A stretch of DNA of 64,000 nt from Minisyncoccota bacterium (GCA_041659205.1 JBAZYS010000004.1:587-64586), one strand, 5' to 3'; shown: positions 18,712 to 39,713, numbered from the stretch's first letter. Numbers and translations: made by a program. The notes: generated by a model from the letters alone, not told the origin.

Positions 18712-19386
18712 CTACATCTTGATCTTCATTCCGAAGGCGATGTGCGTCTTTTTGTCTGTCATGTTGATTGGTAATGATACTTGAACCACGGGAGAGAACA
18801 CCACGCTGCGGTGTTTGAATTCGACACTCGCTTCGTAACGAAACGTGAATCCGCGCTCTTCCTTGAAGATGCCGGAGTCGCGCATGATCCAGATGTTCTG
18901 GACGAACTCCGTGTTCTCGTGGAATGCCCAGTTGTCGCTGAGCCCCGCACGAAGGAACGTCCCCGAATCACCAGTTGAATTTGTCGGCAGTATTGCGCTA
19001 CCCGCCACATACAACTCCAGAGAATGGTTTCCTTTCTTGAAGGGGTAAGTACATCGAAGGTCAACCTGCACGAGATTGGAGGAGCTGCCGCCAGCATGAG
19101 CGTAATATCCCACGTCCATGCTGAAGTTCTTGCTCTCCCAGCCGACGAGGTAATCAAGCTCTCGTCCTCCTTCAGTACCTGTTGACCCCCAGAGGCCGAT
19201 ATGGAAACCAAGGGGAAGACTCCTCCTCACCGACGTATACACAATCGGTTTGTCGTATGGCTGGTCTCCGTTTTCCACGACATACGAGGAAAAGCTTCCA
19301 AGCGTCACTGTCGTCTGCGCTCCAAGTGGAAGCGACGCCAGAACTGCAAGTAGTGCGATGAGCATTGCGTGAGTGATCATCCTCAT
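18712..19386 (-). CDS. secreted beta-strand-rich protein (putative outer-membrane beta-barrel-like) in a GC-rich (~50%) patch
   Basis: Signal peptide MRMITHAMLIALLAVLASLPLGA. Alternating hydrophobic pattern. C-terminal aromatic residue. Many overlapping shadow ORFs because of the high GC. Confidence 0.45.
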   Translation of the reverse strand: MRMITHAMLIALLAVLASLPLGAQTTVTLGSFSSYVVENGDQPYDKPIVYTSVRRSLPLGFHIGLWGSTGTEGGRELDYLVGWESKNFSMDVGYYAHAGGSSSNLVQVDLRCTYPFKKGNHSLELYVAGSAILPTNSTGDSGTFLRAGLSDNWAFHENTEFVQNIWIMRDSGIFKEERGFTFRYEASVEFKHRSVVFSPVVQVSLPINMTDKKTHIAFGMKIKM

Positions 19387-19571: not shown

Positions 19572-19645
19572 TGGGAGATCGTCTAACGGTAGGACAGAGG
19601 CCTTTGAAGCCTTTAATCTAGGTTCGATTCCTAGTCTCCCAGCCA
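19572..19645 (+). tRNA. tRNA-Gln (anticodon UUG) with encoded CCA
   Basis: TGGGAGATCGTCTAACGGTAGGACAGAGGCCTTTGAAGCCTTTAATCTAGGTTCGATTCCTAGTCTCCCAGCCA. Anticodon loop CTTTGAA. T-loop TTCGATT. Confidence 0.85.
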
Positions 19646-19735
19646 AGTCGTGATAGGTTATCTCGCACGAGATGCGTAGAAACCAAACGATGCACTATTC
19701 AGTCAAAGCATACCTGCTGAGAGCAGTATTCAGAA

Positions 19736-19764
19736 CAAAAAAACACCCTAATCGGTGTTTTTTT
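19736..19764 (+). terminator. Rho-independent terminator downstream of tRNA-Gln
   Basis: A-run, ACACC-ctaatc-GGTGT hairpin, T6 run. Confidence 0.55.
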
Positions 19765-21853
19765 GTTTGGTCTGATTTATCTTTCGGAGAAACTCTGTAT
19801 ATGCTATATTAGATTTAATATGGATGAATTTTTGGCTAACCTTTTACCTGGAAATTATTGGATAACAAAATCCATGGAATTTTCAAAGACCAATACCAGT
19901 GGCACTCTATGGTATCTTAAAAAATGGTTTGTTTACTATTACTATATTTTCTTTAAAAAAACGATACACGAGAATGATTATTTAGAAATAATAGAAATTT
20001 TTGATAAATTTATAATATCGCTAGATTCACGTGTCCAGGATAAAGCCAGGGGATTTTTTTATGAAATAGATATAAGGGCAAATTTTACAAGAATGAATGC
20101 TTTTTGTGACACCAGCGGAACTGTCTTCCCATCAGCTCGAGAAGAAGCCCAATCCATGGTTGAAGCTAAAAAGTTTTATTTTATGTATGTTATGGGCATA
20201 GGAGGACAAAGTGGTTATAAAAAAGAAATATTAGAACTTATCCAAGCTGGCACCTCATACACTGAGATAAAAAAAGTTATGGTAGAAAAAATGGAAAGTG
20301 ATGGAATACAATCGAACGATATAAAAATTCAATTTTCAGATTTTCCCGCCGCTATTCGCAATGAGAGACAAATATTTTTTTACTATGGGTTATTTCATGG
20401 TAGCGACAAGAAAGATTTGTCTGGTTTCTATACTATGACTCGACTAGGTAGATCAATAATATCTGCAACATTCTATGAATTAATAATTATATGGGAACAT
20501 CAAAAATTAAAGATGATATCCCAAAATCCAGATACGAAAATTGATTTAGGTAGCCATACCGTTAATACAAATTTGAATTATCCTGCTTTTGGTATCCATT
20601 ACCATCCATATGTAGCACTGTTAAAGACTCTAACAAACTTACAAACAACCAGTAAAGAAATCTATCAATTTTATATTGCTAGACTAAAAAATTCTCACGA
20701 TTTGAATGTTCTTTCGGAAAAAGTTAAGACCACACCTGCAGCGATAGAAGATATAAAAACAAAAATTGCATCTTTTAACAGAAAGGGAGATTTAGCAACG
20801 GAAGATTTTCATAAAGAATTTAAAAAATATGTCTTGGGGATTAGTAGTCTACCTTTAGATAATAATACTAATTTGTTCTCTTTTCTTTCTGAAGATGGAC
20901 TTGAGGTTGAGGATAATCCAAAAATTAGTTTTGTAATTAAATGCTACGACATAATTGCTAAATACTTAGATTTAAAAAATTCAGATAACTATAAAAACTT
21001 TGAAGGTAGTTTAAGACAATATTATCTTGCGCAAGTTAATAAAACTCCTTTCGAATATGACCCAGAAATAACATATGAATGGCATAAATATATAATATCT
21101 CCCGAGACTGCAATTATTTTAAGTGTTATCTACATATACTGCGCGCTAAAAAATAATAAATATGGTTTTGATTTAAGTGAAGCAGAAATTAAAGCCAACT
21201 ATAAGGAATTCAAAAACCTTTTGGAAATCACGGGTATTGGTAAGCAAAGTGATTTTATAGAAAACATACAACGAATTCAATCAGAACTCTCAGAAGGATC
21301 ATTGATGATGGCTTACGATACAGAGGAAGAGGAAATTCCTACTGTGTTTGATGAACTGGTTGATGAAAGCAAACTTGCTGAAATTTCAAAACGTACTAGT
21401 GCATTTAATGTTACCAGAAAAAGAAGTTCTGAAGTCATAAATGCTGTCAGAAGTTATTATCGAAAAAACTTTGAGCTTCCACCGGATAATCTTATTAAGT
21501 GTGATGCTTGTAGTGAGAAAACTTTTATGACAAAAGGTCAGTATGCTTATCTGGAATTTCATCATTTCATTCCTTTCTCTACTGATAATGGTCCGGATCA
21601 TTATCTAAATTTAGTTGGAATCTGTCCAATTTGTCACCGAAAATTCCATCATGCCACTAAAGATGTTAGGAAGGCTCTTTATGAAAACCTGTCAACAAAC
21701 AATAATATGAGAAAAACTCTAGATTTTCGTGTAAATAAATTATACGAGGAACGTGTACTCGAGCCATTAAATATTGAATTTCTCAGAAAGGAAAATATCA
21801 TCTCAAGGGAGAAATACGAAACTTACATGAATCAAGAAATTGTTGTTAGTTAA
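19763..21853 (+). CDS. large protein with a C-terminal HNH endonuclease domain (probable restriction endonuclease of the adjacent R-M module; likely true start is ATG 19820)
   Basis: C-terminal CDACSEK...EFHHFIPFS...NLVGICPICHRKFHH is the CxxC...HH...CxxC-H HNH/beta-beta-alpha-Me motif. Converges on and overlaps the MTase operon by 8 nt. Confidence 0.65.
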   Translation: MFGLIYLSEKLCICYIRFNMDEFLANLLPGNYWITKSMEFSKTNTSGTLWYLKKWFVYYYYIFFKKTIHENDYLEIIEIFDKFIISLDSRVQDKARGFFYEIDIRANFTRMNAFCDTSGTVFPSAREEAQSMVEAKKFYFMYVMGIGGQSGYKKEILELIQAGTSYTEIKKVMVEKMESDGIQSNDIKIQFSDFPAAIRNERQIFFYYGLFHGSDKKDLSGFYTMTRLGRSIISATFYELIIIWEHQKLKMISQNPDTKIDLGSHTVNTNLNYPAFGIHYHPYVALLKTLTNLQTTSKEIYQFYIARLKNSHDLNVLSEKVKTTPAAIEDIKTKIASFNRKGDLATEDFHKEFKKYVLGISSLPLDNNTNLFSFLSEDGLEVEDNPKISFVIKCYDIIAKYLDLKNSDNYKNFEGSLRQYYLAQVNKTPFEYDPEITYEWHKYIISPETAIILSVIYIYCALKNNKYGFDLSEAEIKANYKEFKNLLEITGIGKQSDFIENIQRIQSELSEGSLMMAYDTEEEEIPTVFDELVDESKLAEISKRTSAFNVTRKRSSEVINAVRSYYRKNFELPPDNLIKCDACSEKTFMTKGQYAYLEFHHFIPFSTDNGPDHYLNLVGICPICHRKFHHATKDVRKALYENLSTNNNMRKTLDFRVNKLYEERVLEPLNIEFLRKENIISREKYETYMNQEIVVS

Positions 21854-22589
21854 CTATTTTTATTTTTAAGTCTTTTGGCTTTGTTTCTATTGTAGTTTTT
21901 ATATAGGCTGGATTTATTTCATACCCTATGCAATTTCTTCCAGTTTTATAAGATGCAAAAAGAGTAGACCCTGATCCTAAAAATGGATCTAAAACCATGT
22001 CACCTTTTTTAGTAAAAAGATTGATACCTCGTTCGGCTAATGCAACAGGATAAAAAGCAGGATGAGGATGTTTTGATAAAATTGATCCGGCATTTTTTAC
22101 TATATGCCAAGAATTTATATCTTTTAACTGATCATTTTTGTAGTCATTATAGGTGTAATCTTTATTTAGTATAAGTTTTCCTTTTGAGGCAATAATAATA
22201 TATTCAAAACGATCTGTGAGTTTACTTTTTTGAGTTGGAACACCACTAGATTTATGCCAAATATTCATTTTGAAATTTTTAAACCCAATTTTTTTAAGTT
22301 GTTCGTAAAAATCAATATGTATAGGGTAATAATGATTCTGCACCGTTCTAGAGTTTATATTTATTGCAATAACTCCGTCTTTCTCTAAGACTCTAAAACA
22401 TTCTTTCCAAACCTTATTTAAATCATCAAGATATTTATTATAGGTTTGTTTATACCCAATTTGATCTTTAATTTCATAATCTTTTAAATCCCAATATGGA
22501 GGCGAAGTGAACACCAATTTAACAGAATGGTCCTTTAAATTAGACATTTTTAAACAAGATTTATTATATATGGTGTAGTTCTCCTTCAT
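21846..22589 (-). CDS. DNA methyltransferase, beta-class (N6-adenine or N4-cytosine)
   Basis: Motif IV TSPPYW near the N-terminus and motif I DPFLGSGST near the C-terminus. Confidence 0.85.
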   Translation of the reverse strand: MKENYTIYNKSCLKMSNLKDHSVKLVFTSPPYWDLKDYEIKDQIGYKQTYNKYLDDLNKVWKECFRVLEKDGVIAININSRTVQNHYYPIHIDFYEQLKKIGFKNFKMNIWHKSSGVPTQKSKLTDRFEYIIIASKGKLILNKDYTYNDYKNDQLKDINSWHIVKNAGSILSKHPHPAFYPVALAERGINLFTKKGDMVLDPFLGSGSTLFASYKTGRNCIGYEINPAYIKTTIETKPKDLKIKIVN

Positions 22590-23142
22590 CGATTTTTTTA
22601 AAATTATTACTGATACAAAGTAGTGTGTATTTTTTGTTTTTTATAGATGACAATTTAATTCTTTTTAATAATTCTTCTGGTGTTAAAATCTCATGCCCTA
22701 TAGTATTAGCTTTCCCATCATCAATTATTTTGATCCAAACAGTTCCTGGGTCCTTGCCTAATATGTTGTAATTCTTTGCTCGTTTACCCCATTCTACATC
22801 TTTCCATATATGTTTTTCTCTTATAGGATCCTTATTGAAAAAGTAATTTTCACCTAAATAAGCTCCAATTATAATATATATCTCTTTTGTTGGGGTTTTC
22901 TTATCTAACGTAAACGGATATATCCACGAAATTCTAAAGGCATGTTTAAAATATTTATTTATGAACGGCTCGAAAGTGAAGATATCTGAAGATTTCATAA
23001 TAAACCAAAATAAAGAATCTGGTGAAAAATTATAGTCCAGTTCTTTTGGATTTATGAATTTTTTTGAATTAGTTAAATCAATAACAGCAGATCCTATTAT
23101 TTTTTTATTTTCTTTTATCTTTTTCATCTTTGACATCATCAA
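22564..23142 (-). CDS. hypothetical protein sandwiched between two methyltransferases (possible R-M specificity/control or nuclease component)
   Basis: Translationally coupled (overlaps both flanking MTase genes). No recognised motifs. Confidence 0.35.
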   Translation of the reverse strand: MMMSKMKKIKENKKIIGSAVIDLTNSKKFINPKELDYNFSPDSLFWFIMKSSDIFTFEPFINKYFKHAFRISWIYPFTLDKKTPTKEIYIIIGAYLGENYFFNKDPIREKHIWKDVEWGKRAKNYNILGKDPGTVWIKIIDDGKANTIGHEILTPEELLKRIKLSSIKNKKYTLLCISNNFKKIDEGELHHI

Positions 23143-23998
23143 TTCTTTTCTGAGACACCTTACAATAATCTAAGTCAAGATCTATACCAATGAAATTTCT
23201 TTTTAATTCTCTACTAACTTTTGCAGTTGTTCCACTGCCTAAGAAGATATCTACCACCATATCTCCCTTATTTGATGAAGCTTTAATTATTCTCTCGATT
23301 AATTTTTCTGGGAATTGGCATGGGTGAATAGTTTTTTCGTTGCTAACATTAACAACTCTATCAATATACAAGAAATTATCACTTAGATCAGACTGACTTC
23401 TTTCATTGTCTTTTTTAACTTGTTCAATAAAATATTTTATTTCTTCTGGTTTTAAATCTTTACTTTTAAATTCCCAAACATCTGTTGGGTTTTTACCTTT
23501 TGGATTTACTCTTGGATCATTTTGCCACTTTGCTGGAATACGAATATCATCTAAATTAAATTTGTAATTGTCTTTATCTTTTACAAACCAAAGTATGTTT
23601 TCATATCTACCTGATAATCTGTTTTTGGTATTAATTCCACCTTCAAAATGCCAAATTATCCAATTTTTTAAATAAAATCCTGCATCTTTAAAAATCTTGT
23701 AATAAATTGCTCCTAATGGAATTATTTCATTATCAAGTGGTGTTTGTGCGACATTCCAAAAGACTGAGCCGTTTGATGCCAATTTATCATAGAGTAAATT
23801 TACTGTTTTCGTATGATATTCAAGATAGTCTGCAAAAGATTTATCTATTTCGTATTTTTTACCTACGAAGTACCCAGGACTTGTAACCATTAAATCAATA
23901 GAATTATCATTAAAATCAGCAAGGGCTAAATTTGTATCACTATTAATTATATAATCTTTTTTACCTTTTATATATTTTTTTGTTATTGAAGTTTTCAT
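23105..23998 (-). CDS. DNA methyltransferase, beta-class (second MTase of the module)
   Basis: Motif IV-like TSPGYF near the N-terminus and motif I DIFLGSGTT near the C-terminus. Confidence 0.8.
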   Translation of the reverse strand: MKTSITKKYIKGKKDYIINSDTNLALADFNDNSIDLMVTSPGYFVGKKYEIDKSFADYLEYHTKTVNLLYDKLASNGSVFWNVAQTPLDNEIIPLGAIYYKIFKDAGFYLKNWIIWHFEGGINTKNRLSGRYENILWFVKDKDNYKFNLDDIRIPAKWQNDPRVNPKGKNPTDVWEFKSKDLKPEEIKYFIEQVKKDNERSQSDLSDNFLYIDRVVNVSNEKTIHPCQFPEKLIERIIKASSNKGDMVVDIFLGSGTTAKVSRELKRNFIGIDLDLDYCKVSQKRIDDVKDEKDKRK

Positions 23999-24095
23999 CT
24001 GTTGCCTGTTAGTATATATAATACATTAATTTACTAGCATTTCCTATCTTTACAAAACTGTCTTTTTGTATGAAATAATACATAATGTCATTTTT

Positions 24096-25415
24096 CTATA
24101 ATAATCCAATCTCCTTATCTTTTAATACTATTTTACTCTTTAGACATCCTAGCAATTCACGTTTTTCAACACCTTGCCCCTCTTTCAATATGTACTTTGC
24201 ATAATTTCGTATATCGATATCTTTAACCTCAATTTTATCTTTGATTCCAAGAACTGATCTTTGAAACTTTTTTATCCTTTCAACTTCTGTTTTAATTTTT
24301 TCTTTTATACCTATTTCATTAATATCTATTTTTTCTATCAATTCTTCAAACTGCTTAACTAGATCAATTTCATTAATATAGCCACATTTGCAATCTCTAT
24401 CTTTAGATTTGTTGCAACCATAATAAACATGTCGGTGTACATTACCATTCTTTTGTTTCTTAAACTTTTCATCTGGGGTTATGCCTGATCCACATAGTCC
24501 ACAAGTCATTAACTTGGTGAAAGCAAATTCCTTACCCTCTGACCTAACAAACTGACTTTTGATTTGTGCTTGTACTTCATTAAACAATTCCTTAGTTATG
24601 ATTGGTTCATGTTTTCCTGTGTACCAGTTACCACTTTTAACTGGATACTCAAATACTCCATAATAGAAGTGGTTTTGAAGAATCATATAAATATTACCTA
24701 AACTTAGATTTTTGTTTCCACTAGCAGTTTTGAAATTTAGATCAAACTTAAGCCATTGATATATCTTTCTTCCACTCCATTTTTCATAAGCAACTTTTTC
24801 AAACATCTTTTTAATAATAGGTGCTCTATCAGGATCAATAATAGCCTGACACTTTCTATCAACTCTTTTTTCTTTTAAATAGCCGGTAGGAGCAGGTCCA
24901 GGCCATAATCCCATCTCCACTCTTGTTCTTAGACCTCGTTTAACATTGATACTTTTATTATCGTTTTCTAATTTTGCTTGAGAACATAAAATCATTAAAA
25001 GAAATTTTTCACTTGGTGTGTTTGTGAATGATTGTCCGAAAGTTCTTATCTCAACTAATAATTTCTGATCCATTAGATCAACTATTGATCCTAAATCACC
25101 AGCATTTCTTGAAAGACGATCAGGATGCCACACAAGTATTCCATTAAATCTTTCTCTTTTTATATCTTCCAATATCTCTTTATATACTGGTCGCTGTCCT
25201 GAATCTTTAGCTGAATGTGCCTCTCTTCTAACATCTACGATGTTAAGATTTTCTCTATCTGCTATAGCCAACATTTCTTTAACCTGAGAATCAATTGAAA
25301 GAGCTTGTTTCTCATCTGATTCAGTTGACTTTCTAGCATATAAAACATAATTAATTTTTACTGTCGGAATAATAGCTCTTGTGCCAATTAGTCCAAAATT
25401 TGTTTGTGTCTCCAT
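24096..25415 (-). CDS. large serine recombinase (resolvase/invertase catalytic domain plus recombinase and zinc-ribbon domains)
   Basis: N-terminal YARKSTESDEKQALSIDSQ (catalytic Ser region), then ...HPDRLSRN. C-terminal Cys cluster (CGLCGSG...CNKSKDRDCKC). Confidence 0.85.
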   Translation of the reverse strand: METQTNFGLIGTRAIIPTVKINYVLYARKSTESDEKQALSIDSQVKEMLAIADRENLNIVDVRREAHSAKDSGQRPVYKEILEDIKRERFNGILVWHPDRLSRNAGDLGSIVDLMDQKLLVEIRTFGQSFTNTPSEKFLLMILCSQAKLENDNKSINVKRGLRTRVEMGLWPGPAPTGYLKEKRVDRKCQAIIDPDRAPIIKKMFEKVAYEKWSGRKIYQWLKFDLNFKTASGNKNLSLGNIYMILQNHFYYGVFEYPVKSGNWYTGKHEPIITKELFNEVQAQIKSQFVRSEGKEFAFTKLMTCGLCGSGITPDEKFKKQKNGNVHRHVYYGCNKSKDRDCKCGYINEIDLVKQFEELIEKIDINEIGIKEKIKTEVERIKKFQRSVLGIKDKIEVKDIDIRNYAKYILKEGQGVEKRELLGCLKSKIVLKDKEIGLL

Positions 25416-25419
25416 ACCT

Positions 25420-25750
25420 CATGATGTCAGAGAAAGGGTCTTTTGCTAAGACTCGCTTGTTGGCAACTTGTTGGTAACTTTCCTCTGTGATTTAAAGGTT
25501 CTGCGATAGGATGGGCTTGGAATAATAGGGTCGAAAGTGGTATTATTCATTTACAAGTAAATAAGTAGTAGCCTAAACCTTTGGAAACAAAGGCATGGCG
25601 AAGAAGTCGATCAAGCGTAAAGAACCTATCATATAGGGTCGCTTGATCGCCATATTGGGAAACCAGTATGAGTACCGCAAGGTACTACCTATGTGGTAGG
25701 CTTTTTGCGTCTTACCCTAGGATTTTATAAATAAAACGCAACAAAAAAAT
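25420..25750. other. GC-rich structured non-coding region upstream of the serine recombinase gene (candidate recombination site or regulatory RNA)
   Basis: No ORF. Several perfect hairpins (TCGATCAAGCG/CGCTTGATCG 10 bp, GTACCgcaaGGTAC, GGTCTTttgctaAGACT). Confidence 0.3.
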
Positions 25751-25753
25751 ACC

Positions 25754-26233
25754 ATGAGCGATCAAGCTGGTAAAAAATTGTGTCCGCATTGCAAGCAGGA
25801 AGTAGATATAAAAGCGAGTCGATGTCCACATTGTCAGGGGAAGATATATGTTTGGACATGGAGTAAAAAGTTAATAGCAGGATTTATTGTCTTTATATTC
25901 TTAAGTGTCATTTTCTCTAGCGGATCAAGTAGATCAAGTACCCCTGTTACTACTCAACAAGGTCCTAGTAATGTAGAAGTATGTGTTGAATCAGAACATA
26001 TCCTTGAAGGATTTTTGAAATCACCATCAACTGCAAAATATCCAACATGTAATAGCATTACTATCGAAAGATTAGCCAATGATCAATTCAATGTCAGATC
26101 ATATGTTGACTCTCAAAATGGATTCGGGGCTATGGTGAGAAGTAACTGGTCAGTTAAGTATCATTACACAGACAGTGGAACACGAACACAATTAGATTCA
26201 GTTGTAATTGATGGGAAAGAAATGTATAAGTAA
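25754..26233 (+). CDS. zinc-ribbon/TM-anchored hypothetical protein
   Basis: CPHCKQ...CPHCQG ribbon, one TM, Ser-rich linker. Confidence 0.4.
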   Translation: MSDQAGKKLCPHCKQEVDIKASRCPHCQGKIYVWTWSKKLIAGFIVFIFLSVIFSSGSSRSSTPVTTQQGPSNVEVCVESEHILEGFLKSPSTAKYPTCNSITIERLANDQFNVRSYVDSQNGFGAMVRSNWSVKYHYTDSGTRTQLDSVVIDGKEMYK

Positions 26234-26235
26234 AT

Positions 26236-26676
26236 TTATTTCTTTTTCTTTTTGGTTGGTTTAACATCTTTCTGTTTTTCTTCATTGGCAGGTTTCTTAA
26301 ACCATTTATCTTGGAATTTTTTTAGCCTTTCTGCTCCAAGTTTTACCTTACGATCATATTCTTCTTTTGTCTCGCGTTCATTATGTATATGAATATGAGG
26401 TCTTCTAAATTCAGGATGCCTACAGGCTAACCAAAACTTGGTATAACCAGGATCCTTATTTTGGATTCCACCAAGCACATTACTCTCCGCAAAATCATTG
26501 ACTAAACGGATACCCATTCCCATGGCTTCTTCAACAAGCCCCCTAAATTCAAAGTCTTCATTCATCCAACGATAGAAAGTATTTCTAGATATACCAACCT
26601 TTTCGCATACGACAGAAATTATTGGAGTCTTCTCTAATTCCTCTATGAATTTTTTCTTTACACTAGCGTTCTTCAT
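26236..26676 (-). CDS. HTH protein resembling a phage terminase small subunit
   Basis: N-terminal HTH (VCEKVGISRNTFYRWMNED), FWLACRHPEF motif, Lys-rich tail. Confidence 0.45.
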   Translation of the reverse strand: MKNASVKKKFIEELEKTPIISVVCEKVGISRNTFYRWMNEDFEFRGLVEEAMGMGIRLVNDFAESNVLGGIQNKDPGYTKFWLACRHPEFRRPHIHIHNERETKEEYDRKVKLGAERLKKFQDKWFKKPANEEKQKDVKPTKKKKK

Positions 26677-27931
26677 AGTGTTCTATGATCGCTTTGCGAC
26701 CTGTTAGTTTCTCGTATCTGTGGATGATTAAGTCGCAAAATTGTGGTTCTAGTTCACATCCATATACTCTTCGACTAAGAGCTTCTCCTGCGATAATAGT
26801 GCTACCTGATCCCAAGAAACTATCTAAGATTATGTCATCAACCTTGGTGCATCTTTTGATAGCTTTTTCGTAAAGTTGTGGAGGCTTGCTGGTCGCATGT
26901 GTATATTCTTTGGCTGGGAGTCGCTTAACTGCCCATATGTCCGATATTTGCTCAAGTAGATTATTCCCCGTACCCATTTCTTTGTTCATCACTTCGTTTA
27001 GATTTGTAACTGTTTCGGCTAAGTATGGTTTACCACGAATACCATACACTGCCGGTTCGTAATTTTTATTGAACGCTACAGAAGGTACGGGATTTTGCGA
27101 ATTTTTTAGCCAAATTGCCACTCGCTTATTGTTAATGCCGAGCGAACGATAAATGTCTTGGACTACACCGATATAAATTTGATCGCAAAAATAAAACACG
27201 TGAGTGTCGCTATGTGATACTGCAAGTGCACATTCAAGACTATCCTTTAAGAATTTTTTATATTCCTCAAACGTACGATGATCATTTACTTGACCACCAT
27301 ATGATTGATTTCCACCCAAACCACTATCATAATTTACATCCAGATTATACACGGAGTCGCTAAAAATCATTGATGCTTTTTCTTGTCCAAGTAATCGTTT
27401 TAGATTTTCTTGTTTTGTGGAATCTCCACACAATAACCTATGCTTGCCCAAAACTATAATATCGCCAAGCTTTGTTATTGGTTTCTTAATTTTCTTTAAT
27501 TCTTTTTCGATTTCAAAATTATCATCAATGACTTCTTTTTCCTTATCCCAAATTTTTGTGAGATTGATTTCATCAAACCCAGAATCAATGAGAACATCAA
27601 ACTTAAATGATTTTAGGGACTGGAAATCCCATTCGCCATCATTCAAGTTGCTTTCTAGAGCTATTTTTGTTCTTTCATCTTTTGTGAGGCTACGACTTGG
27701 CACTAAAACATTTACTTTTTTTACTCCAAGTTGCTGAAGAACAACTTTTCGCTGATTTCCAGAGAGTATCGTATTATCTGTATCAATCACGATTACATCA
27801 TGAAAACCACGTTGTATTATTCTTTCTTTCAACTTTTCTAAACCCAACTTTGTTATCTTTCTTGGATTGTCTTTCCAGACTAATAAATTTTCGACATCCC
27901 TCACTTCTGTAAACCATTGTAATTTTTGCAT
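26663..27931 (-). CDS. ParB-like nuclease domain fused to a DNA methyltransferase (phage-type orphan MTase)
   Basis: N-terminal ParB/Sulfiredoxin-like region (VWKDNPRKI...ILSGNQRK). C-terminal MTase motif I ILDSFLGSGSTIIAGE. Confidence 0.8.
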   Translation of the reverse strand: MQKLQWFTEVRDVENLLVWKDNPRKITKLGLEKLKERIIQRGFHDVIVIDTDNTILSGNQRKVVLQQLGVKKVNVLVPSRSLTKDERTKIALESNLNDGEWDFQSLKSFKFDVLIDSGFDEINLTKIWDKEKEVIDDNFEIEKELKKIKKPITKLGDIIVLGKHRLLCGDSTKQENLKRLLGQEKASMIFSDSVYNLDVNYDSGLGGNQSYGGQVNDHRTFEEYKKFLKDSLECALAVSHSDTHVFYFCDQIYIGVVQDIYRSLGINNKRVAIWLKNSQNPVPSVAFNKNYEPAVYGIRGKPYLAETVTNLNEVMNKEMGTGNNLLEQISDIWAVKRLPAKEYTHATSKPPQLYEKAIKRCTKVDDIILDSFLGSGSTIIAGEALSRRVYGCELEPQFCDLIIHRYEKLTGRKAIIEHYEER

Positions 27932-28243
27932 AGATTTTTTCTATAAAAAGTTACTTAATAATTTTCCATAATTTTTAAGATTCTCTCGACAGAAAATCTA
28001 TGCTTGTTACCAGGGATTTATCTAGTTACCCGCTAAAACTTTATCAAATAAGTGCACAACTATGTGTTGTCTATGAATAGAAAAAAGAAGATCTCCGTAA
28101 AAACCCTTATATTAATAAGGGTAAATTTGTAATATAGAAAAATATTTTAAATTTATATTTTTTAGAAAGGCTGGCAGTGAGGGTATGCCAAAAATAGTGG
28201 ATACAATTTACTGGTCCGCTTTATAAAAATATTATTAGTTAGG

Positions 28244-28744
28244 TTAACAAGTAAACAAATTAAGATTTATTAAACGAAAAGTCATAGCTTTTTCACTAAC
28301 TTTATACATATCACATAGTGTCTTTATTTCTTTTTCTGAAATACCATGAGAGTTAAGTTTTTTTACATCTTCTTCTAAGAATTTTTTGGGCATTAAAAGA
28401 GCGGCAGCAAATTGATCTGCTTCAGTTTCTTTAAAATTTTTAATATCATTTTCTTTTAATTCCTTTCTGTAATCGACAAAAGTGTCGTCTTGTTGATGAA
28501 GGAAAAAATGTCCCAATTCATGAGCAATGCTAAATCTTTGTCTAACAGGTGCCTCATTATTGTTTATTCCAATTAGTGCATGTCCATCCTTTCTGATAAG
28601 CATTCCAGAGAATTCCTTACTTGGAGCACGGCTAATTTTAATCTTTTGAGCAATTGCAATTTCTTCTATTGGGACAGGTCTACTTTTAATATTTAAAGTA
28701 TCTAAAATCTCTTGTGTTTTTATTTCAATTTTCTGTGTGATCAT
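28244..28744 (-). CDS. ImmA/IrrE-family metallopeptidase (CapP-like)
   Basis: HEXXH motif HELGHFFLH. Directly downstream of, and co-directional with, the XRE gene. Confidence 0.8.
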   Translation of the reverse strand: MITQKIEIKTQEILDTLNIKSRPVPIEEIAIAQKIKISRAPSKEFSGMLIRKDGHALIGINNNEAPVRQRFSIAHELGHFFLHQQDDTFVDYRKELKENDIKNFKETEADQFAAALLMPKKFLEEDVKKLNSHGISEKEIKTLCDMYKVSEKAMTFRLINLNLFTC

Positions 28745-28750
28745 GATATA

Positions 28751-29107
28751 TTACTTTTTATTTTTAAACAGTCGCTCTGCCCATGCGGCAGCTTTTTCTC
28801 CTTTCTCCTGAGCAACTTTACGAATATCGACTTTAGTAATGGCGTATCCGTCTGGTAAGACGGGAAAAAAATCTTCAACTTCACAATTAAACAAAGTAGC
28901 CAATTTCCAAAGTGATACAGCTGAAACGTTATTCCTACCATTCTCTATATGTGTAACCGCTTCACGAGATATTTTTAAATGATCGGCAACTGTTTGAGCA
29001 CTAAGTCCAAGTGACCCTCGCAATTGCTTTATTGTCTTGCCAATTTCTTTTTTAATTTCATTGTCTGCGGCATCTCTATCGTCTATTGTAACTTTTTTCT
29101 TTTTCAC
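28751..29107 (-). CDS. XRE-family helix-turn-helix transcriptional regulator (CapH-like)
   Basis: HTH_XRE core LGLSAQTVADHLKISREAVTHIENGRNNVSAVSLWKLATLF. Confidence 0.8.
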   Translation of the reverse strand: MKKKKVTIDDRDAADNEIKKEIGKTIKQLRGSLGLSAQTVADHLKISREAVTHIENGRNNVSAVSLWKLATLFNCEVEDFFPVLPDGYAITKVDIRKVAQEKGEKAAAWAERLFKNKK

Positions 29108-29550: not shown

Positions 29551-29937
29551 ATGGCAGCAATAGAGTTACAAAAAGAGGACGCTTCGTACTTAGCTGAGAA
29601 AAGTTATCAGTATGAATTGTTCCCCGAGAATAACGAGTTGCATGTGATTATAAAGGAATTTCCGTTTCCAACTAGTTTATATTCGCCAAGTACAGCAGAG
29701 TTGTTGATTAAAATTCCACCAGGATATCCCAATACTCAATTGGATATGTTTTGGACTAATCCAGAAATCAAGAAAGTTGATGGTCAGGCTCCTGCAGCAT
29801 CTGAAACTCGTGAACAACATCACGGGCGTAGCTGGCAACGTTGGTCTAGACATTACGCGTCGGGGTGGCGACCTGGGATCGACGGACTAAGAAGTTTTAT
29901 TCAATCTATTAATGCCGAGCTACTAACGGGCAGATAA
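29551..29937 (+). CDS. E2/UBC-like protein (prokaryotic E2 family) with no cysteine in the predicted product
   Basis: 128 aa. Position in the operon (3 nt after the Ubl stop). IKIPPGYPNTQLDMFWTNPEI resembles the E2 HPN-loop region. Zero Cys residues in the translation. Confidence 0.45.
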   Translation: MAAIELQKEDASYLAEKSYQYELFPENNELHVIIKEFPFPTSLYSPSTAELLIKIPPGYPNTQLDMFWTNPEIKKVDGQAPAASETREQHHGRSWQRWSRHYASGWRPGIDGLRSFIQSINAELLTGR

Positions 29938-29941
29938 CAAC

Positions 29942-31327
29942 ATGGAATACAGCATATCTTTTAAAGAGGAAGACTATCAACGCCTCGTAGAGCATTTATT
30001 CTCTAATCGTACTACGGAATGCGCAGCATATCTTTTATGCGGTGTATCTAGGAGCGACACTGAGATACGCTTGCTTGTTCGTTCAGTTATTCCTGTAGAG
30101 GATGCGGATATTGAAGAATCTTCTCCTGTGCATATGAAAATAAGGTCGCTGTCGTATGTTCGCGCAATTAAACAGGCACGCAAGGCAGGTGAAGGATTTA
30201 TTTTTGTGCATTCGCACCCTAAAGAAAGCCCTCAGCATTCTAAGCAAGATGATATAGAGGAGGAAAAACTTTTCAAAACTGTTTATCAAAGAATTCCCGA
30301 TATGATACATGCTAGTTTGGTCTTATCGGAGCCATCACGATTTTCTGCACGTGTGTGGTTGGATGATGGGTCTAACATTCCAGTCAGTGTAGTTAGGTCA
30401 ATTGGGCATAGATTCCGTTTTTTTAGCAACCACGAAGACAAAAACCCTCATCCAGAATTTTTTGATCGGCAAATTAAAGCTTTCGGCAAAGACATACAAT
30501 CAACTCTTAACAAACTAAAGATTGGTATAGTGGGTCTTGGTGGAACTGGTTCAGCGGTGGCTGAGCAGCTTATTAGACTTGGAGTTGGTACCTTATATCT
30601 TTTTGATGATGATACCTTTGATTCTACAAATATAAATAGAGTTTACGGTTCACGTCTATCTGATACAAAAAAACTAAAGGTTGAGATAATACAACGCCTG
30701 GCTACGGAGATAGGGTTAGGGACTATCGTTAAAATTTTCAACAAAAAAATAACCTATCAGAGTGTTTTGCAAGATTTAAAAAAATGCGATATTGTTTTTG
30801 GTTGTACTGATGACAATTGGGGTAGGTCAATTTTATCTCGCCTCGCTGTCTATTATTTAATCCCAGTCATTGATATGGGCGTAAAAATAAACTCTAAAAA
30901 TAACGAGATAGTTTCTATCCATGGACGCGTGACTGTACTCTTACCAGACCATGCGTGTTTATTTTGCAGAGATCGCATTGATTCAGGTATAATGAGTACA
31001 GAAATTGCGGAAGCAACTAACCCTAGCGATGCGGCAACACGGAAGAAAGAAGGTTACATTCCGGAATTACCAGACAGTGCACCAGCGGTCATACCATTTA
31101 CCACAATAGTTGCAGCTACTTCAGTCAGTGAACTTCTGCATCGCCTCACAGGTTTTCTTGGTGAAGATCGAAAAACCAACGAAGTGATACATCTCTTTGA
31201 CCAGGAAAGAATCGGTAAGAATGCTCGTGCTTCTGAAAATGGATGTGTTTGTGGCGATAAAAATCATATTGCTCGTGGAGATGTCGATCCACATGCACTT
31301 GGATTAACATGGAGAAATGAAGATTAA
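29942..31327 (+). CDS. JAB/JAMM deubiquitinase-like peptidase fused to an E1-like (ThiF/MoeB) adenylyltransferase
   Basis: JAMM motif FVHSHPKESPQHSKQD (HxHx7Sx2D). E1 Rossmann IGIVGLGGTGS, DDDTFDSTNINR, FGCTDDNWGRS. Zinc motifs CLFC and CVCGDKNH. Confidence 0.85.
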   Translation: MEYSISFKEEDYQRLVEHLFSNRTTECAAYLLCGVSRSDTEIRLLVRSVIPVEDADIEESSPVHMKIRSLSYVRAIKQARKAGEGFIFVHSHPKESPQHSKQDDIEEEKLFKTVYQRIPDMIHASLVLSEPSRFSARVWLDDGSNIPVSVVRSIGHRFRFFSNHEDKNPHPEFFDRQIKAFGKDIQSTLNKLKIGIVGLGGTGSAVAEQLIRLGVGTLYLFDDDTFDSTNINRVYGSRLSDTKKLKVEIIQRLATEIGLGTIVKIFNKKITYQSVLQDLKKCDIVFGCTDDNWGRSILSRLAVYYLIPVIDMGVKINSKNNEIVSIHGRVTVLLPDHACLFCRDRIDSGIMSTEIAEATNPSDAATRKKEGYIPELPDSAPAVIPFTTIVAATSVSELLHRLTGFLGEDRKTNEVIHLFDQERIGKNARASENGCVCGDKNHIARGDVDPHALGLTWRNED

Positions 31328-31661
31328 AAAACTTTTTTACAATTGGTGGAATTCAGCTCGTTCTTTTAAATACAAGAAGGTTTATTTTGTTTCCTCTATA
31401 AATAAAATACCTGAAGGTAAATTAGAGAAACATATTTATATTGTATCTAAAGAAGGAAAAAATCTATGGGTGGTTATGGATTGTCCAAAAGGACATGACA
31501 GACGCATAGAGGTAAATTTAATGAAAAGCATTAAACCTTTCTGGGAAATACAACTTCAGAACGGTAAGCTTACATTATATCCATCCATAGTTGTTTCAGG
31601 AAAATCCTGTAATTGCCATTTTTGGCTAAGAGATAATAAAGTATACGATGCACACTGGTAG
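31317..31661 (+). CDS. small Cys/His-rich protein, probably DUF6527-like, the usual partner of multiubiquitin/E1/E2 operons
   Basis: Overlaps the E1 gene stop by 11 nt. CPKGHDRR...SCNCHF putative metal ligands. DUF6527 assignment is from memory. Confidence 0.45.
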   Translation: MKIKKLFYNWWNSARSFKYKKVYFVSSINKIPEGKLEKHIYIVSKEGKNLWVVMDCPKGHDRRIEVNLMKSIKPFWEIQLQNGKLTLYPSIVVSGKSCNCHFWLRDNKVYDAHW

Positions 31662-31704
31662 TTTTTGGAAATTAATATAAATTACAAGCAAAAAAACAAG
31701 AATA

Positions 31705-32076
31705 ATGAGTCCTGATTTTACAAAACAAATGGTAGATATGCTTTTAGGTTCCATACCAAAAGGAACAATTTGGGCTTTGCAATTTGTCTGGGATATCATT
31801 AAAACTTTCTTGTCGAATAACTTAATGGCTGTAACTATTATTCTTATTATTATCCTCATCTATGCAGTCCTTAGGGCTCTTATGGGAGATTGGTGGGTAT
31901 TAGGGAAAGTACTACATAAGTATTTATATTGGGGATCAGGGCTACTTATCGCCTTTATATGGGGTCCTGAAGTGTTTGCAGGCACTTATGTAGACATATG
32001 GTTATATATTCTATCTATAACTTGTTTTATCGTGGTTGGAGTAATTTTGAACAAAACAGGACTAAAAAGAATTTAA
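31705..32076 (+). CDS. membrane protein (3-4 TM) immediately downstream of the Ubl operon
   Basis: Hydrophobic helices. No known family. Confidence 0.4.
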   Translation: MSPDFTKQMVDMLLGSIPKGTIWALQFVWDIIKTFLSNNLMAVTIILIIILIYAVLRALMGDWWVLGKVLHKYLYWGSGLLIAFIWGPEVFAGTYVDIWLYILSITCFIVVGVILNKTGLKRI

Positions 32077-32119
32077 TTTCTCTTTTGGTTTTATTTTAAA
32101 TTTAATATAATTAATTGGT

Positions 32120-33472
32120 ATGAGTGAGAAATATTTAAAATCTCATCAATACTATATTGATCTTTACGATCGTGGTACCGTAGAGGTTTGTCGTAGGCTA
32201 GATAAGCCATCTCCTGAACCTGATAAAGAAGAACTTAAAGAAAAAAAGATAACTAGAAGACAAGCAAAAGTTTTAGATAAAGGTGTTCGAGATTGGATTA
32301 TTCATTTTCAAGCTGGTGAAAGATATCTTAAAAAAGACTCAACAATTCGTGAGTGGATGGATAGAGATCAAAAGAGAGATGAGTTATATGAAAATGCAGA
32401 AGCTCCTGAAGATATTCGCTGTCTTACTTGTCGTAACAAAATGAAACCGACATTTAAAGAACTCTGGTTAGAATCCGATAAACCAGATCGTGTTTTATTT
32501 ATGTACGATTGTCCTAATAAATGTTTACCGAGACGATCATTCTTTCATGATGGTGAAGAGTGGAGAACAAAACCACATCTTTGTATCCGTTGTAATTCTC
32601 CAGTCACCCAAACTTCAGAAGATGATGGTGTAAAAATGATTACTACTTCTACTTGTAAGAAATGTGGGCATATTGAGAAAGAAGAATATACATGGAGTGT
32701 TAAAAAAGAGGAAGATGGTCTCGATGAGAATTTTGCAGTTGATAGAGATCGTTTCTGTTTAAGCGATGAGGACGGTAAAAAGTTTCAGGATGAAAAATGG
32801 AACATGGAAAGTGCTGGTAAGTTCATGGAAGAGTGGAAAGAAAAAGAGAAAGCAAAAGAAGAAAAATTAAAACAAAATCCAAAGGGCTTTCATCTTGAGG
32901 GTGCAGGTTACACTTGTTTTATCTGTGGTGATAGTACTCCTGAGGGTGATAATTGGTACGACAAGTGGGGTATAAAATGTTTAGTCTGCCAAAAAGCAAT
33001 CGATGAGGGTGAAATACCACCTGCTTTGGCTAAATATCAAGACACTTGGTATACGAAGCATGACTTTGAATATTACTTTAATGTTAATCGTTTTGGTTTA
33101 CAAAAGTGGATTAAAAACGGAATATTAAGACCTAGGACAATCAGTCATTATGGTAAAGGCGAACATACACAAATCTTTCTTATGAAAGATAACAAAGGAC
33201 TATTGCCACCTAAAAAATTACTTAAAGGTCATTCAGTAAAAACAGTAGAAAAAGACGGCAAAGAATATACTCATATGGAAAAGTGGTATAGATTTGTTGA
33301 TCCTTTTAAATATCTTAAGAAATACAGAATTATGAGATATTTAAGAGTTGTTCCACCCGAAGAGGTAAAAGCAAAAGAAGAGGCAGAAAAGAAAAAACAG
33401 GAAGAAAAACAGGCACGTCGAGAACAGAGGAGACTTTTAAAACAAAAAATTAATCGTAAAAAGATAAATTAA
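32120..33472 (+). CDS. Lys/Glu-rich protein with six CxxC pairs (multi zinc-ribbon), hypothetical
   Basis: CLTCRN, CPNKC, CIRCNS, CKKCGH, CFICGD, CLVCQK. Strongly charged KE-rich N- and C-termini. Confidence 0.45.
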   Translation: MSEKYLKSHQYYIDLYDRGTVEVCRRLDKPSPEPDKEELKEKKITRRQAKVLDKGVRDWIIHFQAGERYLKKDSTIREWMDRDQKRDELYENAEAPEDIRCLTCRNKMKPTFKELWLESDKPDRVLFMYDCPNKCLPRRSFFHDGEEWRTKPHLCIRCNSPVTQTSEDDGVKMITTSTCKKCGHIEKEEYTWSVKKEEDGLDENFAVDRDRFCLSDEDGKKFQDEKWNMESAGKFMEEWKEKEKAKEEKLKQNPKGFHLEGAGYTCFICGDSTPEGDNWYDKWGIKCLVCQKAIDEGEIPPALAKYQDTWYTKHDFEYYFNVNRFGLQKWIKNGILRPRTISHYGKGEHTQIFLMKDNKGLLPPKKLLKGHSVKTVEKDGKEYTHMEKWYRFVDPFKYLKKYRIMRYLRVVPPEEVKAKEEAEKKKQEEKQARREQRRLLKQKINRKKIN

Positions 33473-33482
33473 ATAATCCACT

Positions 33483-33801: not shown

Positions 33802-33977
33802 AAAGGACTAATTGATACAATATATCATAACTTACAAGTTTTACCCTTAGCCTTAGGGACTGTCACTTTTGTCACTTTTTGAGGTGCTCGAGATGCGTCG
33901 TTTTGGTATAATAAAAGGGTTAAAAATAACATTACAGGGTAAGGAACTGATTGGTTCTAACTCGAGTCTCCCAGCTT

Positions 33978-35348: not shown

Positions 35349-35363
35349 TAAGTTTCAAAATAT

Positions 35364-35723: not shown

Positions 35724-35740
35724 TTTATATAATAAAAACA

Positions 35741-35986: not shown

Positions 35987-35997
35987 ATTTAAACATT

Positions 35998-36873: not shown

Positions 36874-36898
36874 TCTAATCATGTTATAATATTTTCAT

Positions 36899-37321: not shown

Positions 37322-37374
37322 TTGGGGCTGATGAAAAACAGATCTAAGAACAAGAAGGCGGCGGCGAAGTTAGC

Positions 37375-39709: not shown

Positions 39710-39713
39710 TTAT

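What the first reader, a model, noticed from the sequence alone, without database searches (positions are those of the whole stretch)
19763..23998. Restriction-modification-like module: 696-aa HNH-domain protein converging on an operon of two beta-class methyltransferases with an embedded unknown ORF
Two MTases of the same class (motif IV N-terminal, motif I C-terminal) flank and translationally overlap a 192-aa unknown ORF on the minus strand. A large protein whose only recognisable part is a C-terminal CxxC-HH-CxxC-H HNH nuclease converges on them and overlaps by 8 nt. Two MTases plus one nuclease is the layout of Type IIS or asymmetric-site systems (one MTase per strand). The large N-terminal region of the HNH protein would then be the specificity domain. 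Alternatively, the 192-aa ORF is the REase and the HNH protein is a separate modification-dependent or abortive-infection nuclease. Either way the system is unassigned.
Basis: partly seen in the sequence, partly recalled or inferred. Interest (0 to 1): 0.55.

Follow-up and report, generated by a model that had tools for sequence, protein, structure and literature searches.

The report
HNH restriction-modification module with dead methylase
This is a complete, apparently uncharacterised restriction-modification system (one HNH nuclease and two DNA methylases) on an integrated mobile element, and its "unknown" gene encodes a catalytically dead methylase copy that always travels with one of the active methylases.

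Summary
In detail: all four ORFs, both overlaps and the motifs are present. Two corrections apply. The nuclease gene most likely starts at ATG 19820 (677 aa), and the 297-aa methylase has SPGY, not SPPY, as motif IV.

The HNH protein belongs to a small, sharply defined family, about 104 clusters among 1.84 billion representatives. In every one of 19 informative loci from many phyla it sits next to the same two beta-class methylases. That linkage argues for a cognate Type II system and against a stray Type IV or homing nuclease.

The predicted nuclease structure (pLDDT 90) has a large helical N-terminal region, a disordered linker and a C-terminal McrA-type HNH domain. The N-terminal region weakly resembles the Type IIS nickase Nt.BspD6I. 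Distant relatives carry two HNH domains.

The 192-aa ORF is not a nuclease. It has a beta-class methylase fold without the catalytic or SAM-binding motifs. In most relatives it is fused to the N-terminus of the 247-aa-type methylase, and it is under purifying selection.

The most likely reading is a Type IIS-like system recognising an asymmetric site, with the dead methylase acting as the non-catalytic dimer partner. Recognition site and activity are untested. This is a new variant of a known kind, of moderate interest.

The parts
19572..19645 (+). tRNA-Gln (UUG). It marks the left border of the inserted low-GC element that carries the module.
   Evidence: ARAGORN. Nucleotide homology to the 81%-identical relative L004 begins at 19657, just after the tRNA. 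GC is 0.298 for 19657-24000 against 0.353 for the whole window.
19733..19768 (+). Terminator-like hairpin (15 bp stem followed by a T run) upstream of the nuclease gene. It covers the TTG at 19763 that the mechanical ORF call used as the start.
   Evidence: sequence read.
19820..21853 (+). R gene: predicted Type II (IIS-like) HNH restriction endonuclease, 677 aa from ATG 19820. The maximal ORF starts at TTG 19763.
   Evidence: 108 full-length homologues were found. AF2 gives pLDDT 90.3 and pTM 0.90.
19820..21304 (+). N-terminal, mostly helical region (aa 1-495) of R, the presumed DNA-recognition module. It has no Pfam family or PDB sequence homologue and only a weak fold match to Nt.BspD6I.
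   Evidence: Many residues are invariant.
21317..21340 (+). Predicted disordered linker (aa 500-507, pLDDT below 50) between the recognition region and the nuclease part.
21500..21652 (+). HNH (His-Me finger) nuclease domain. Invariant residues are C561, C564, H581, H582, N597, C602, C605 and H606 (677-aa numbering).
   Evidence: Pfam PF01844. The family profile hits EcoKMcrA 6ghc at E 7e-15.
21846..22589 (-). M-B: 247-aa beta-class N6/N4 DNA methylase with motif IV TSPPYW (aa 29-32) and motif I FLGSGS. It is the orthologue of the C-terminal half of the 443-535-aa fused methylase of relatives.
   Evidence: Best PDB match is 2zie (E 2.8e-33).
22564..23142 (-). psiM: 190-192-aa catalytically dead methylase-fold protein (likely start ATG 23136). 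It lacks motif IV and motif I. It is the orthologue of the N-terminal domain of the fused M-B of relatives.
22711..22839 (-). Hyper-conserved loop of psiM (NKDPIREKHIWKDVEWGKRxKNYNxxGKDPGxVW...DDGK). It corresponds to the target-recognition region of beta-class methylases.
   Evidence: Alignment A2. This stretch is conserved at the nucleotide level even in distant loci.
23105..23998 (-). M-A: 297-aa beta-class N6/N4 DNA methylase with variant motif IV TSPGY (aa 40-43) and motif I FLGSGT.
   Evidence: (M.MboIIA 1g60, E 4e-25). Orthologues carry SPSY, SPGY or SPPY.
24096..25415 (-). Large serine recombinase directly upstream of, and co-directional with, the methylase genes. It is part of the same mobile unit and gives context rather than being part of the R-M mechanism.
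   Evidence: Pfam Resolvase, Recombinase and Zn_ribbon_recom. It is syntenic in L004.

Best explanation
The region 19657-23998 is a four-gene Type II restriction-modification module. It is carried on a low-GC integrated element that sits next to tRNA-Gln and encodes a serine recombinase.

R (19820-21853) is a modular endonuclease. A roughly 500-aa helical N-terminal region reads the DNA site, and a flexible linker connects it to a C-terminal McrA-type HNH domain that cuts DNA. Because each chain has only one HNH site, a double-strand break would need transient dimerisation or two sequential cuts.

Two different beta-class amino-methylases, M-A (297 aa) and M-B (247 aa), each protect one strand of an asymmetric site. 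Their S-P-x-Y motif IV suggests N4-cytosine methylation, but this is unproven.

The 192-aa ORF (psiM) is a methylase-fold protein that has lost the catalytic and SAM-binding motifs. It keeps an almost invariant target-recognition-type loop. It most likely acts as the non-catalytic partner of M-B in the dimer that beta-class methylases need, helping to bind DNA while M-B transfers the methyl group.

Shown here: gene content, motifs, folds, conserved linkage, fusion and split states, and purifying selection. Inferred: cognate restriction, site asymmetry and Type IIS cutting, the base modified, and the dimer-partner role of psiM.
For: Conserved linkage. All 15 informative non-redundant loci found through R homologues have R immediately next to an M-A-type and an M-B-type methylase. 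These loci are L001, L004, L005, L008, L009 and L011-L020 (Campylobacterota, Bacteroidota, Firmicutes, Paceibacterota). Four further loci reached from psiM homologues show M-A, then psiM, then M-B, converging on R (L021 Pelagibacteraceae, L023 and L024 marine, L025 Firestonebacteria). The R gene runs off the contig end in L021. In L023-L025 R is an 876-887-aa protein, and L025_R visibly carries two CxxC-HH-CxxC-H motifs.

The R family is small and specific. A search with aa 1-500 finds only 104 clusters among 1.84 billion representatives. There is no homologue in 72,556 plasmids, and only the HNH motif matches in 50,697 phages.

R architecture. AF2 gives pLDDT 90.3, with a helical region at aa 1-495, a disordered stretch at 500-507, and then the HNH domain. 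The top Foldseek hits are the Type IIS nickase Nt.BspD6I (E 1e-3 to 8e-3, probability 0.89-1.0) and EcoKMcrA. The HNH residues are invariant. Relatives of 880-900 aa carry two HNH domains, and Sulfurimonas has two tandem R paralogues. Both variants fit one catalytic site per strand.

Methylases. Both match PF01555 in the beta-class motif order. They are only 25% identical to each other. Both types are retained in every locus.

psiM.
- It is 45-69% identical to the N-terminal domain of the fused M-B in other loci.
- Standalone homologues match PF01555 positions 28-185 of 221 above the gathering score.
- The AF2 model (pLDDT 85.6) matches M.BceJIV, M.MboIIA, M.RsrI, CcrM, MTA1 and METTL3-METTL14 (E down to 3.6e-7, TM about 0.54).
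- It has no motif IV and no motif I.
- dN/dS is 0.08.

Literature.
- Beta-class methylases function as dimers with division of labour between the subunits (PMC7544214).
- Enzymes that recognise asymmetric sites usually have two methylases, either separate or fused (PMC4081073).
- HpyAII is an HNH Type IIS enzyme with two exocyclic methylases (PMC7494987).
Against: There is no biochemical or methylome evidence. The recognition site, the cleavage position and the modified base are all unknown.

The fold match of the R N-terminal region to Nt.BspD6I is weak: TM 0.2-0.27, E about 1e-3, with no support from sequence or Pfam.

PADLOC scores the HNH part slightly better against a Type IV model (3e-8) than against a Type II model (6e-7).

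M-A carries the non-canonical motif SPGY, whose activity is untested.

The partner role of psiM rests on analogy. No complex model or interface test was possible, and psiM could pair with M-A instead or serve another role.

In Sulfurimonas CS5 the M-A gene is frameshifted while both R copies look intact. That would be unexpected if M-A is essential for protection, unless it reflects a sequencing error or phase variation.
Confidence: 0.7

Rival explanations
1. The HNH protein is a Type IV (modification-dependent) or abortive-infection nuclease. It merely lies next to protective or orphan methylases of the mobile element and is not their cognate partner.
For: Its HNH domain is closest to EcoKMcrA, a Type IV enzyme. 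The PADLOC Type IV model scores marginally best. The element also carries a separate ParB-methylase typical of phages.
Against: Adjacency to the same two methylase families is strict in all 19 informative loci across many phyla, often with overlapping stop and start codons. No SRA, SBD or McrA-N type modified-base reader was found in the N-terminal region. A methyl-dependent nuclease permanently linked to two methylases would be self-destructive unless their specificities never overlap.
Confidence: 0.07
2. It is a cognate R-M system, but psiM is not a dimer partner. It could be an evolutionary leftover kept as a spacer or folding domain, a regulator of methylase or nuclease expression, or a partner of M-A or of R rather than of M-B.
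For: No interaction was tested. psiM resembles the M297-type methylase more than it resembles M-B. Separate and fused forms both exist.
Against: It is fused specifically to M-B in at least 11 loci and is never found alone with R. dN/dS is 0.08, and a loop of about 40 aa is nearly invariant across phyla, which is too much constraint for a spacer. Beta-class methylases need a second protomer (PMC7544214).
Confidence: 0.15
3. It is a cognate Type II system that recognises a symmetric or degenerate site and cuts within it (Type IIP-like). The two methylases would then be redundant or modify different bases of the same site.
For: Asymmetry of the site is inferred only from the presence of two different methylases. 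Many HNH REases are Type IIP (KpnI, Hpy99I, PacI; PMC4081073).
Against: Both methylase types are retained in every locus, and in one they are fused into a single chain (L017). R has a domain-linker-nuclease layout, and its best fold hit is a Type IIS nickase. Double-HNH and tandem-R variants suit strand-specific cutting at an asymmetric site.
Confidence: 0.1
4. The 192-aa ORF is the true restriction endonuclease, or a controller (C) protein, of the two methylases.
For: It has no Pfam hit, and it lies between two methylase genes as small REase or C genes sometimes do.
Against: Its predicted fold is a beta-class methylase, and its homologues hit PF01555. It is the N-terminal domain of M-B in most relatives. 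It has no nuclease motif and no helix-turn-helix.
Confidence: 0.02

Closest known systems
HpyAII / MboII-type Type IIS systems (GAAGA 8/7): one REase plus M1 (m6A) and M2 (m4C), both exocyclic methylases
   Same: HpyAII is an HNH-type Type IIS nuclease accompanied by two separate exocyclic amino-methylases, one per strand (PMC7494987). The best solved-structure match of M-A (297 aa) is M.MboIIA (1g60, E 4e-25).
   Different: The HNH residues of HpyAII are H328-H359, so it is a much shorter protein, whereas R here is 677 aa with HNH at 561-606. Homology outside the HNH motif could not be tested because no REBASE sequences were available. No dead methylase component is described for HpyAII or MboII.
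Nt.BspD6I / BstNBI / PleI / MlyI / AlwI family of Type IIS enzymes
   Same: It is the best fold match for the whole R model. Both have a large multi-subdomain recognition region followed by a separate cleavage domain. Members of that family are accompanied by two methylase activities, often fused (PMC4081073).
   Different: The cleavage domain there is PD-(D/E)XK, whereas here it is HNH. TM-scores are only 0.2-0.27. No Pfam RE_AlwI hit was found in any of 42 family members.
EcoKMcrA (PDB 6ghc), a Type IV HNH endonuclease
   Same: It is the closest HNH domain by sequence (profile E 7e-15) and by fold, with the same CxxC...HH...CxxC-H zinc-finger HNH.
   Different: McrA is 277 aa, has an N-terminal reader of modified cytosine, and works without a cognate methylase. 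R here has an unrelated 500-aa N-terminal region and is always linked to two methylases.
Beta-class methylase dimers with division of labour: M.EcoP15I Mod2, CcrM, and the active/inactive heterodimers METTL3-METTL14 and MTA1-MTA9
   Same: psiM has the beta-class fold, and its Foldseek hits include CcrM, MTA1 and METTL3-METTL14. The idea of one catalytic and one DNA-binding protomer matches the review PMC7544214.
   Different: In the bacterial examples the two protomers are identical and both are potentially active. A dedicated dead paralogue, either fused to or encoded beside a Type II methylase, is not among the examples in that review. The psiM-M-B interaction is inferred, not shown.
Split or two-polypeptide methylases (M.AquI, M.EcoHK31I), recalled from memory
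   Same: One methylase function is encoded by two adjacent or overlapping ORFs that are a single chain in relatives.
   Different: Those are C5-cytosine methylases in which both pieces contribute catalytic motifs. Here the extra piece is a complete but degenerate second methylase core, and M-B keeps all its motifs.

Membership tests
Type II restriction-modification system | Separate nuclease and methylase genes are adjacent, and this linkage is conserved in relatives | tested here: met
   All 19 informative loci plus the window have R next to M-A and M-B.
Type II restriction-modification system | Intact catalytic motifs in the nuclease and the methylases | tested here: met
   HNH residues are invariant. 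M-B has SPPY plus FLGSGS. M-A has FLGSGT, but its motif IV is SPGY, a variant shared as SPSY, SPGY or SPPY among orthologues. The activity of that variant is unproven.
Type II restriction-modification system | Sequence-specific cleavage of unmodified DNA that is blocked by the cognate methylation | not testable with these tools
   This needs enzymology or a methylome.
Type IIS subclass | Separable recognition and cleavage domains | tested here: met
   The AF2 model has a helical region at aa 1-495, a disordered linker at 500-507 and an HNH domain at about 555-612. This is a prediction, not a solved structure.
Type IIS subclass | Asymmetric recognition site with cleavage displaced to one side | not testable with these tools
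   Support is only indirect: two different methylases are always retained, and double-HNH or tandem-R variants exist.
HNH / His-Me finger nucleases (PF01844) | Beta-beta-alpha-metal motif with a catalytic His and Asn and a CxxC...CxxC zinc site | tested here: met
   PF01844 scores 31 bits against a cut-off of 21.4 and hits 42 of 42 family members. C561, C564, H581, H582, N597, C602, C605 and H606 are invariant.
Beta-class N6/N4 amino-methylases (PF01555): M-A and M-B | PF01555 match, with motif IV (D/S)PP(Y/F) N-terminal to motif I FxGxG | tested here: met
   Scores are 161.5 and 184.6 bits.
Beta-class N6/N4 amino-methylases (PF01555): the 192-aa ORF | Catalytic motif IV and SAM-binding motif I present | tested here: not met
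   The ORF and all its orthologues lack both motifs. The window protein has no Pfam hit. Homologues match only profile positions 28-185 of 221. The fold is nevertheless that of a beta-class methylase. It therefore has the methylase fold but is not an active methylase.
Type IV McrA-like modification-dependent nucleases | HNH domain joined to a modified-base reader (McrA-N, SRA or SBD), acting without a cognate methylase | tested here: not met
   Only the HNH part matches 6ghc and 5zmm. No reader domain was found by Pfam or Foldseek. The protein is always linked to two methylases.
AlwI / BspD6I REase family (Pfam RE_AlwI) | Sequence-family membership and a PD-(D/E)XK cleavage domain | tested here: not met
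   RE_AlwI is not among the 25 most-matched Pfam families for the 42 members, nor among the hits of the window protein, at E up to 1. The cleavage domain is HNH. Only weak fold similarity was found.
Phage terminase-associated or homing HNH endonucleases | Small HNH protein next to terminase or cos, or inside an intron or intein | tested here: not met
   The protein is 677 aa. Its homologues lie in chromosomal contexts with methylases and none is found in 50,697 phage records.
HpyAII / MboII R-M family | Sequence homology of R to R.HpyAII or R.MboII, and GAAGA specificity | not testable with these tools
   No REBASE sequences were available. Only the layout and the similarity of M-A to M.MboIIA could be compared.

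The most novel reading that the evidence does not exclude
This would be a widespread but unrecognised four-component Type IIS-like R-M family, found in candidate phyla radiation (CPR) bacteria, Pelagibacteraceae, Firestonebacteria, Campylobacterota, Bacteroidota and Firmicutes. In it, one strand-specific beta-class methylase works only as an obligate heterodimer, or single-chain pseudo-dimer, with a dedicated catalytically dead paralogue that supplies DNA recognition. That would be a bacterial counterpart of METTL3-METTL14 and MTA1-MTA9. It would be paired with an HNH nuclease whose 500-aa recognition region represents a new REase specificity module.
Probability: 0.4. Interest if true: 0.6.

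Novelty: new variant of a known kind. Interest (0 to 1): 0.42.

Why it matters
If confirmed, this adds a new family of HNH Type IIS-like restriction enzymes. Such enzymes are potentially useful reagents: single-HNH, domain-separable enzymes have been a source of nicking enzymes.

It would also give a natural bacterial example of an active/dead beta-class methylase pair that exists in both fused and split forms. That makes the proposal that beta-class methylases must dimerise and divide labour directly testable in a simple system. It also bears on how eukaryotic heterodimeric m6A writers could have arisen from R-M methylases.

For the genome in hand, the module marks a mobile defence cargo inserted at tRNA-Gln.

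Tried and rejected
- Programmed frameshift or A-run slippage fusing psiM to M-B. The M-B ATG lies in the +1 frame just after an A7 run. The run is absent in L008, and L020 and L013 have cleanly separated genes, so this was rejected.
- Sequence-level identification of the R N-terminal region. Pfam on 42 members, NCBIfam and PADLOC and a PDB profile search matched only the HNH part.
- Annotated homologues in plasmids or phages. None was found.
- An att-type repeat of the tRNA-Gln 3' end elsewhere in the window, to delimit the element. None was found, so the right border is undetermined.
- Literature searches for a characterised prototype or a methylome of a carrier genus. No direct match was found, only analogues (HpyAII and the beta-class dimer review).
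- Direct BLASTP of the 192-aa ORF against the two neighbouring methylases. This gave only a marginal hit (E 0.009). The relationship became clear only through the fused homologues and the fold search.
- Recognition-site inference from k-mer avoidance was considered and not run. A 64-kb window from a self-methylating host has too little power.

Full report
**What is there**

- a 696-aa ORF at 19763-21853 (+);
- a 247-aa ORF at 21846-22589 (-);
- a 192-aa ORF at 22564-23142 (-);
- a 297-aa ORF at 23105-23998 (-).

The convergent overlap is 8 nt, and the 192-aa ORF overlaps both of its neighbours. Pfam finds HNH (PF01844) near the C-terminus of the large protein and N6_N4_Mtase (PF01555) in the 247- and 297-aa proteins. 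It finds nothing in the 192-aa ORF. Motif IV precedes motif I in both methylases, so both are beta-class.

Two corrections are needed. First, the large gene probably starts at ATG 19820 (677 aa). Its homologues of 677-686 aa align from that Met, and the TTG at 19763 lies within a 15-bp terminator-like hairpin. Second, the 297-aa methylase has TSPGY, not SPPY.

All four genes are under strong purifying selection against an 81%-identical relative, with dN/dS of 0.04-0.08.

**Setting**

tRNA-Gln lies at 19572-19645. Homology to the related contig L004 starts at 19657 and runs through a large serine recombinase (24096-25415). After a gap it resumes across a small-terminase-like HTH protein and most of a ParB-methylase gene.

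GC is 0.30 in the module against 0.35 for the window. The module is therefore cargo of an integrated, phage-like element. The right end of the element was not found.

**The nuclease family and its neighbours**

A word-indexed search gave 108 full-length homologues at 29-97% identity. An exhaustive phmmer search with aa 1-500 found only 104 clusters among 1.84 billion representatives. The family is small and well delimited. It is absent from the plasmid and phage collections.

I fetched loci from genomes and metagenomes and compared every ORF with the window proteins. All 15 informative, non-redundant loci have the HNH gene directly followed by two methylases. Their sources include Aliarcobacter, Sulfurimonas, Flavobacteriaceae, Prevotellaceae, Cytophagales, Clostridia, Bacilli, Ruminococcus, Herbinix and Paceibacterota. 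The first methylase is 274-332 aa (M-A). The second is 443-535 aa (M-B). Only L010 was uninformative, because the contig ends just after the HNH gene.

Starting instead from homologues of the 192-aa ORF, four more loci show exactly the window's layout (L021 Pelagibacteraceae, L023 and L024 marine, L025 Firestonebacteria). That layout is M-A, then a 192-197-aa ORF, then M-B, converging on an HNH gene. The HNH gene is cut by the contig end in L021 and encodes 876-887 aa in L023-L025.

Such strict linkage across phyla is what a cognate R-M system predicts. A stray Type IV, abortive-infection or homing nuclease does not predict it.

**The nuclease itself**

With a 42-sequence alignment, AlphaFold2 gives a confident model (pLDDT 90.3, pTM 0.90). 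It has a mostly helical region at aa 1-495, a disordered stretch at 500-507, an HNH domain, and C-terminal helices.

By sequence only the HNH part has solved relatives. EcoKMcrA (6ghc) scores E 7e-15 with the family profile. No Pfam family covers the first 550 residues in any of the 42 members.

By fold, the best matches to the whole model are five entries of the Type IIS nickase Nt.BspD6I. Their E-values are 1e-3 to 8e-3 and probabilities 0.89-1.0, but TM-scores are only 0.2-0.27. McrA follows them. I treat this as a lead that the N-terminal region is a Type IIS-style recognition module, not as proof.

The distant relatives of 880-900 aa carry two HNH domains. Sulfurimonas CS5 has two tandem paralogues at 37% identity. 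Both variants make sense if each HNH site cuts one strand at an asymmetric site.

**The "unknown" ORF**

Its C-terminal half is 45-69% identical to the N-terminal domain of the long M-B of other loci. The 247-aa methylase matches the C-terminal domain of the same proteins at 42-48%.

The window thus carries a split version of M-B. L017 carries the opposite extreme, with M-A, the extra domain and M-B all in one 715-aa chain. The split form is stable. It occurs in the window, L004, L008, L020, L013 and the four loci reached from psiM homologues. Gene junctions differ among them and no slippery site is conserved.

A search with the ORF found 77 homologues. About half have precomputed PF01555 hits. 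In the four I scanned, the match covers profile positions 28-185 of 221, at 35-51 bits against a cut-off of 26.7.

An AF2 model of the window protein (pLDDT 85.6) matches beta-class methylases: M.BceJIV, M.MboIIA, M.RsrI, CcrM, M1.HpyAVI, MTA1 and METTL3-METTL14. E-values go down to 3.6e-7, with probability 1.0 and TM about 0.54.

Neither motif IV nor motif I exists in this protein or any of its orthologues. A stretch of about 40 residues is nevertheless almost invariant: NKDPIREKHIWKDVEWGKRxKNYNxxGKDPGxVW...DDGK. It lies where beta-class enzymes have their target-recognition region. The ORF therefore encodes a dead methylase, which I call psiM. It is not a nuclease or a controller protein.

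**How it probably works**

Type II enzymes that recognise asymmetric sites are generally accompanied by two methylases, one per strand. These may be separate proteins or joined in one chain (PMC4081073). HpyAII is a precedent for an HNH Type IIS nuclease with two exocyclic methylases (PMC7494987).

Beta-class methylases are thought to be active only as dimers, in which one protomer recognises and the other methylates (PMC7544214). I therefore propose the following.
- R reads an asymmetric site with its N-terminal region and cuts with its HNH domain.
- M-A and M-B each protect one strand.
- psiM is the non-catalytic protomer that completes the M-B dimer. It is covalently attached in most lineages and a separate subunit here.

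The S-P-x-Y form of motif IV in both methylases hints at N4-cytosine methylation. This rests on my recollection of motif statistics and is unproven.

The M297-type M-A occurs with SPSY, SPGY or SPPY in intact systems from several phyla, and its dN/dS is 0.06. The variant is therefore probably tolerated.

**Weak points**

Nothing here shows activity, the recognition site or the modified base. The BspD6I resemblance is weak. PADLOC cannot distinguish Type II from Type IV for the HNH part.

Sulfurimonas has a frameshifted M-A beside apparently intact R genes. In Cytophagales the R gene is broken while the methylases persist, which is the usual decay order for R-M systems.

**Verdict**

This is an R-M system of a known general kind. 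However, its nuclease family has no characterised member that I could find, and it has an unusual, conserved dead-methylase component. I class it as a new variant of a known kind, of moderate interest.

Noticed in passing
window 18712-19386 (-): This 224-aa ORF has a signal-peptide-like N-terminus and 52% GC, in a window that averages 35%. It sits between a rubredoxin-like ORF and tRNA-Gln, and its only Pfam hit is a faint Gcw_chp match. It looks foreign to the surrounding genome and could be horizontal transfer or an assembly chimera.
   Followed up: partly
window 24096-29107: The same element continues with a large serine recombinase, a zinc-ribbon membrane protein, a small-terminase-like HTH protein, a ParB-domain-methylase fusion (422 aa, phrog_498) and an XRE-like HTH / HExxH-peptidase gene pair. 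A third methylase is therefore carried next to the R-M module.
   Followed up: partly
window 29551-49172 (+): A long run of co-directional genes includes a phage-type DNA polymerase (43783-44991, phrog_1268) and an ATPase (47316-49172, phrog_12316). Most of the others have no PHROG hit. It may be the rest of a prophage, but the right border was not located.
   Followed up: partly
L009 8055-14509 (Sulfurimonas sp. CS5, NZ_CP180409): Two tandem paralogues of the HNH nuclease (679 and 658 aa, 37% identical) precede the methylases. The M-A gene is interrupted by a single frameshift. This may reflect a heterodimeric nuclease, phase variation or decay.
   Followed up: partly
L023 6296-8959, L025 4964-7594; proteins P0360, P0368, P0376, P0381: Distant relatives of 876-904 aa share the N-terminal region. 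P0360, P0368, P0376, P0381 and L025_R show two HNH domains, while only one motif was detected in L023_R. L023 and L025 sit in the same convergent four-gene layout.
   Followed up: partly
L013 7998-11987 (Cytophagales MAG): The nuclease gene is split into 369- and 225-aa ORFs, and the M-B-type ORF is shortened to 223 aa with no motif I detected, while M-A and psiM remain. This looks like a decaying copy of the system.
   Followed up: no
L004 2218-6619 and 16206-17939: In the 81%-identical relative, the module is flanked by a Type III-like methylase plus ResIII helicase pair and by an OLD-family AAA/TOPRIM protein. There it sits in a defence-island setting that differs from the window's left flank.
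   Followed up: no
window 22593-22599 (-): An A7 run lies immediately before the M-B start codon, which is in the +1 frame of the psiM tail, and no Shine-Dalgarno sequence is evident. The run is conserved in L004 but not in L008, L020 or L013. Translational coupling seems more likely than frameshifting.
   Followed up: yes
L001 8890-10497 (Aliarcobacter cryaerophilus): The fused M-B of Aliarcobacter (535 aa) carries a pentapeptide-repeat-like linker (aa 205-274) between the dead and the active methylase domains. This linker is absent from the 443-483-aa versions.
   Followed up: no
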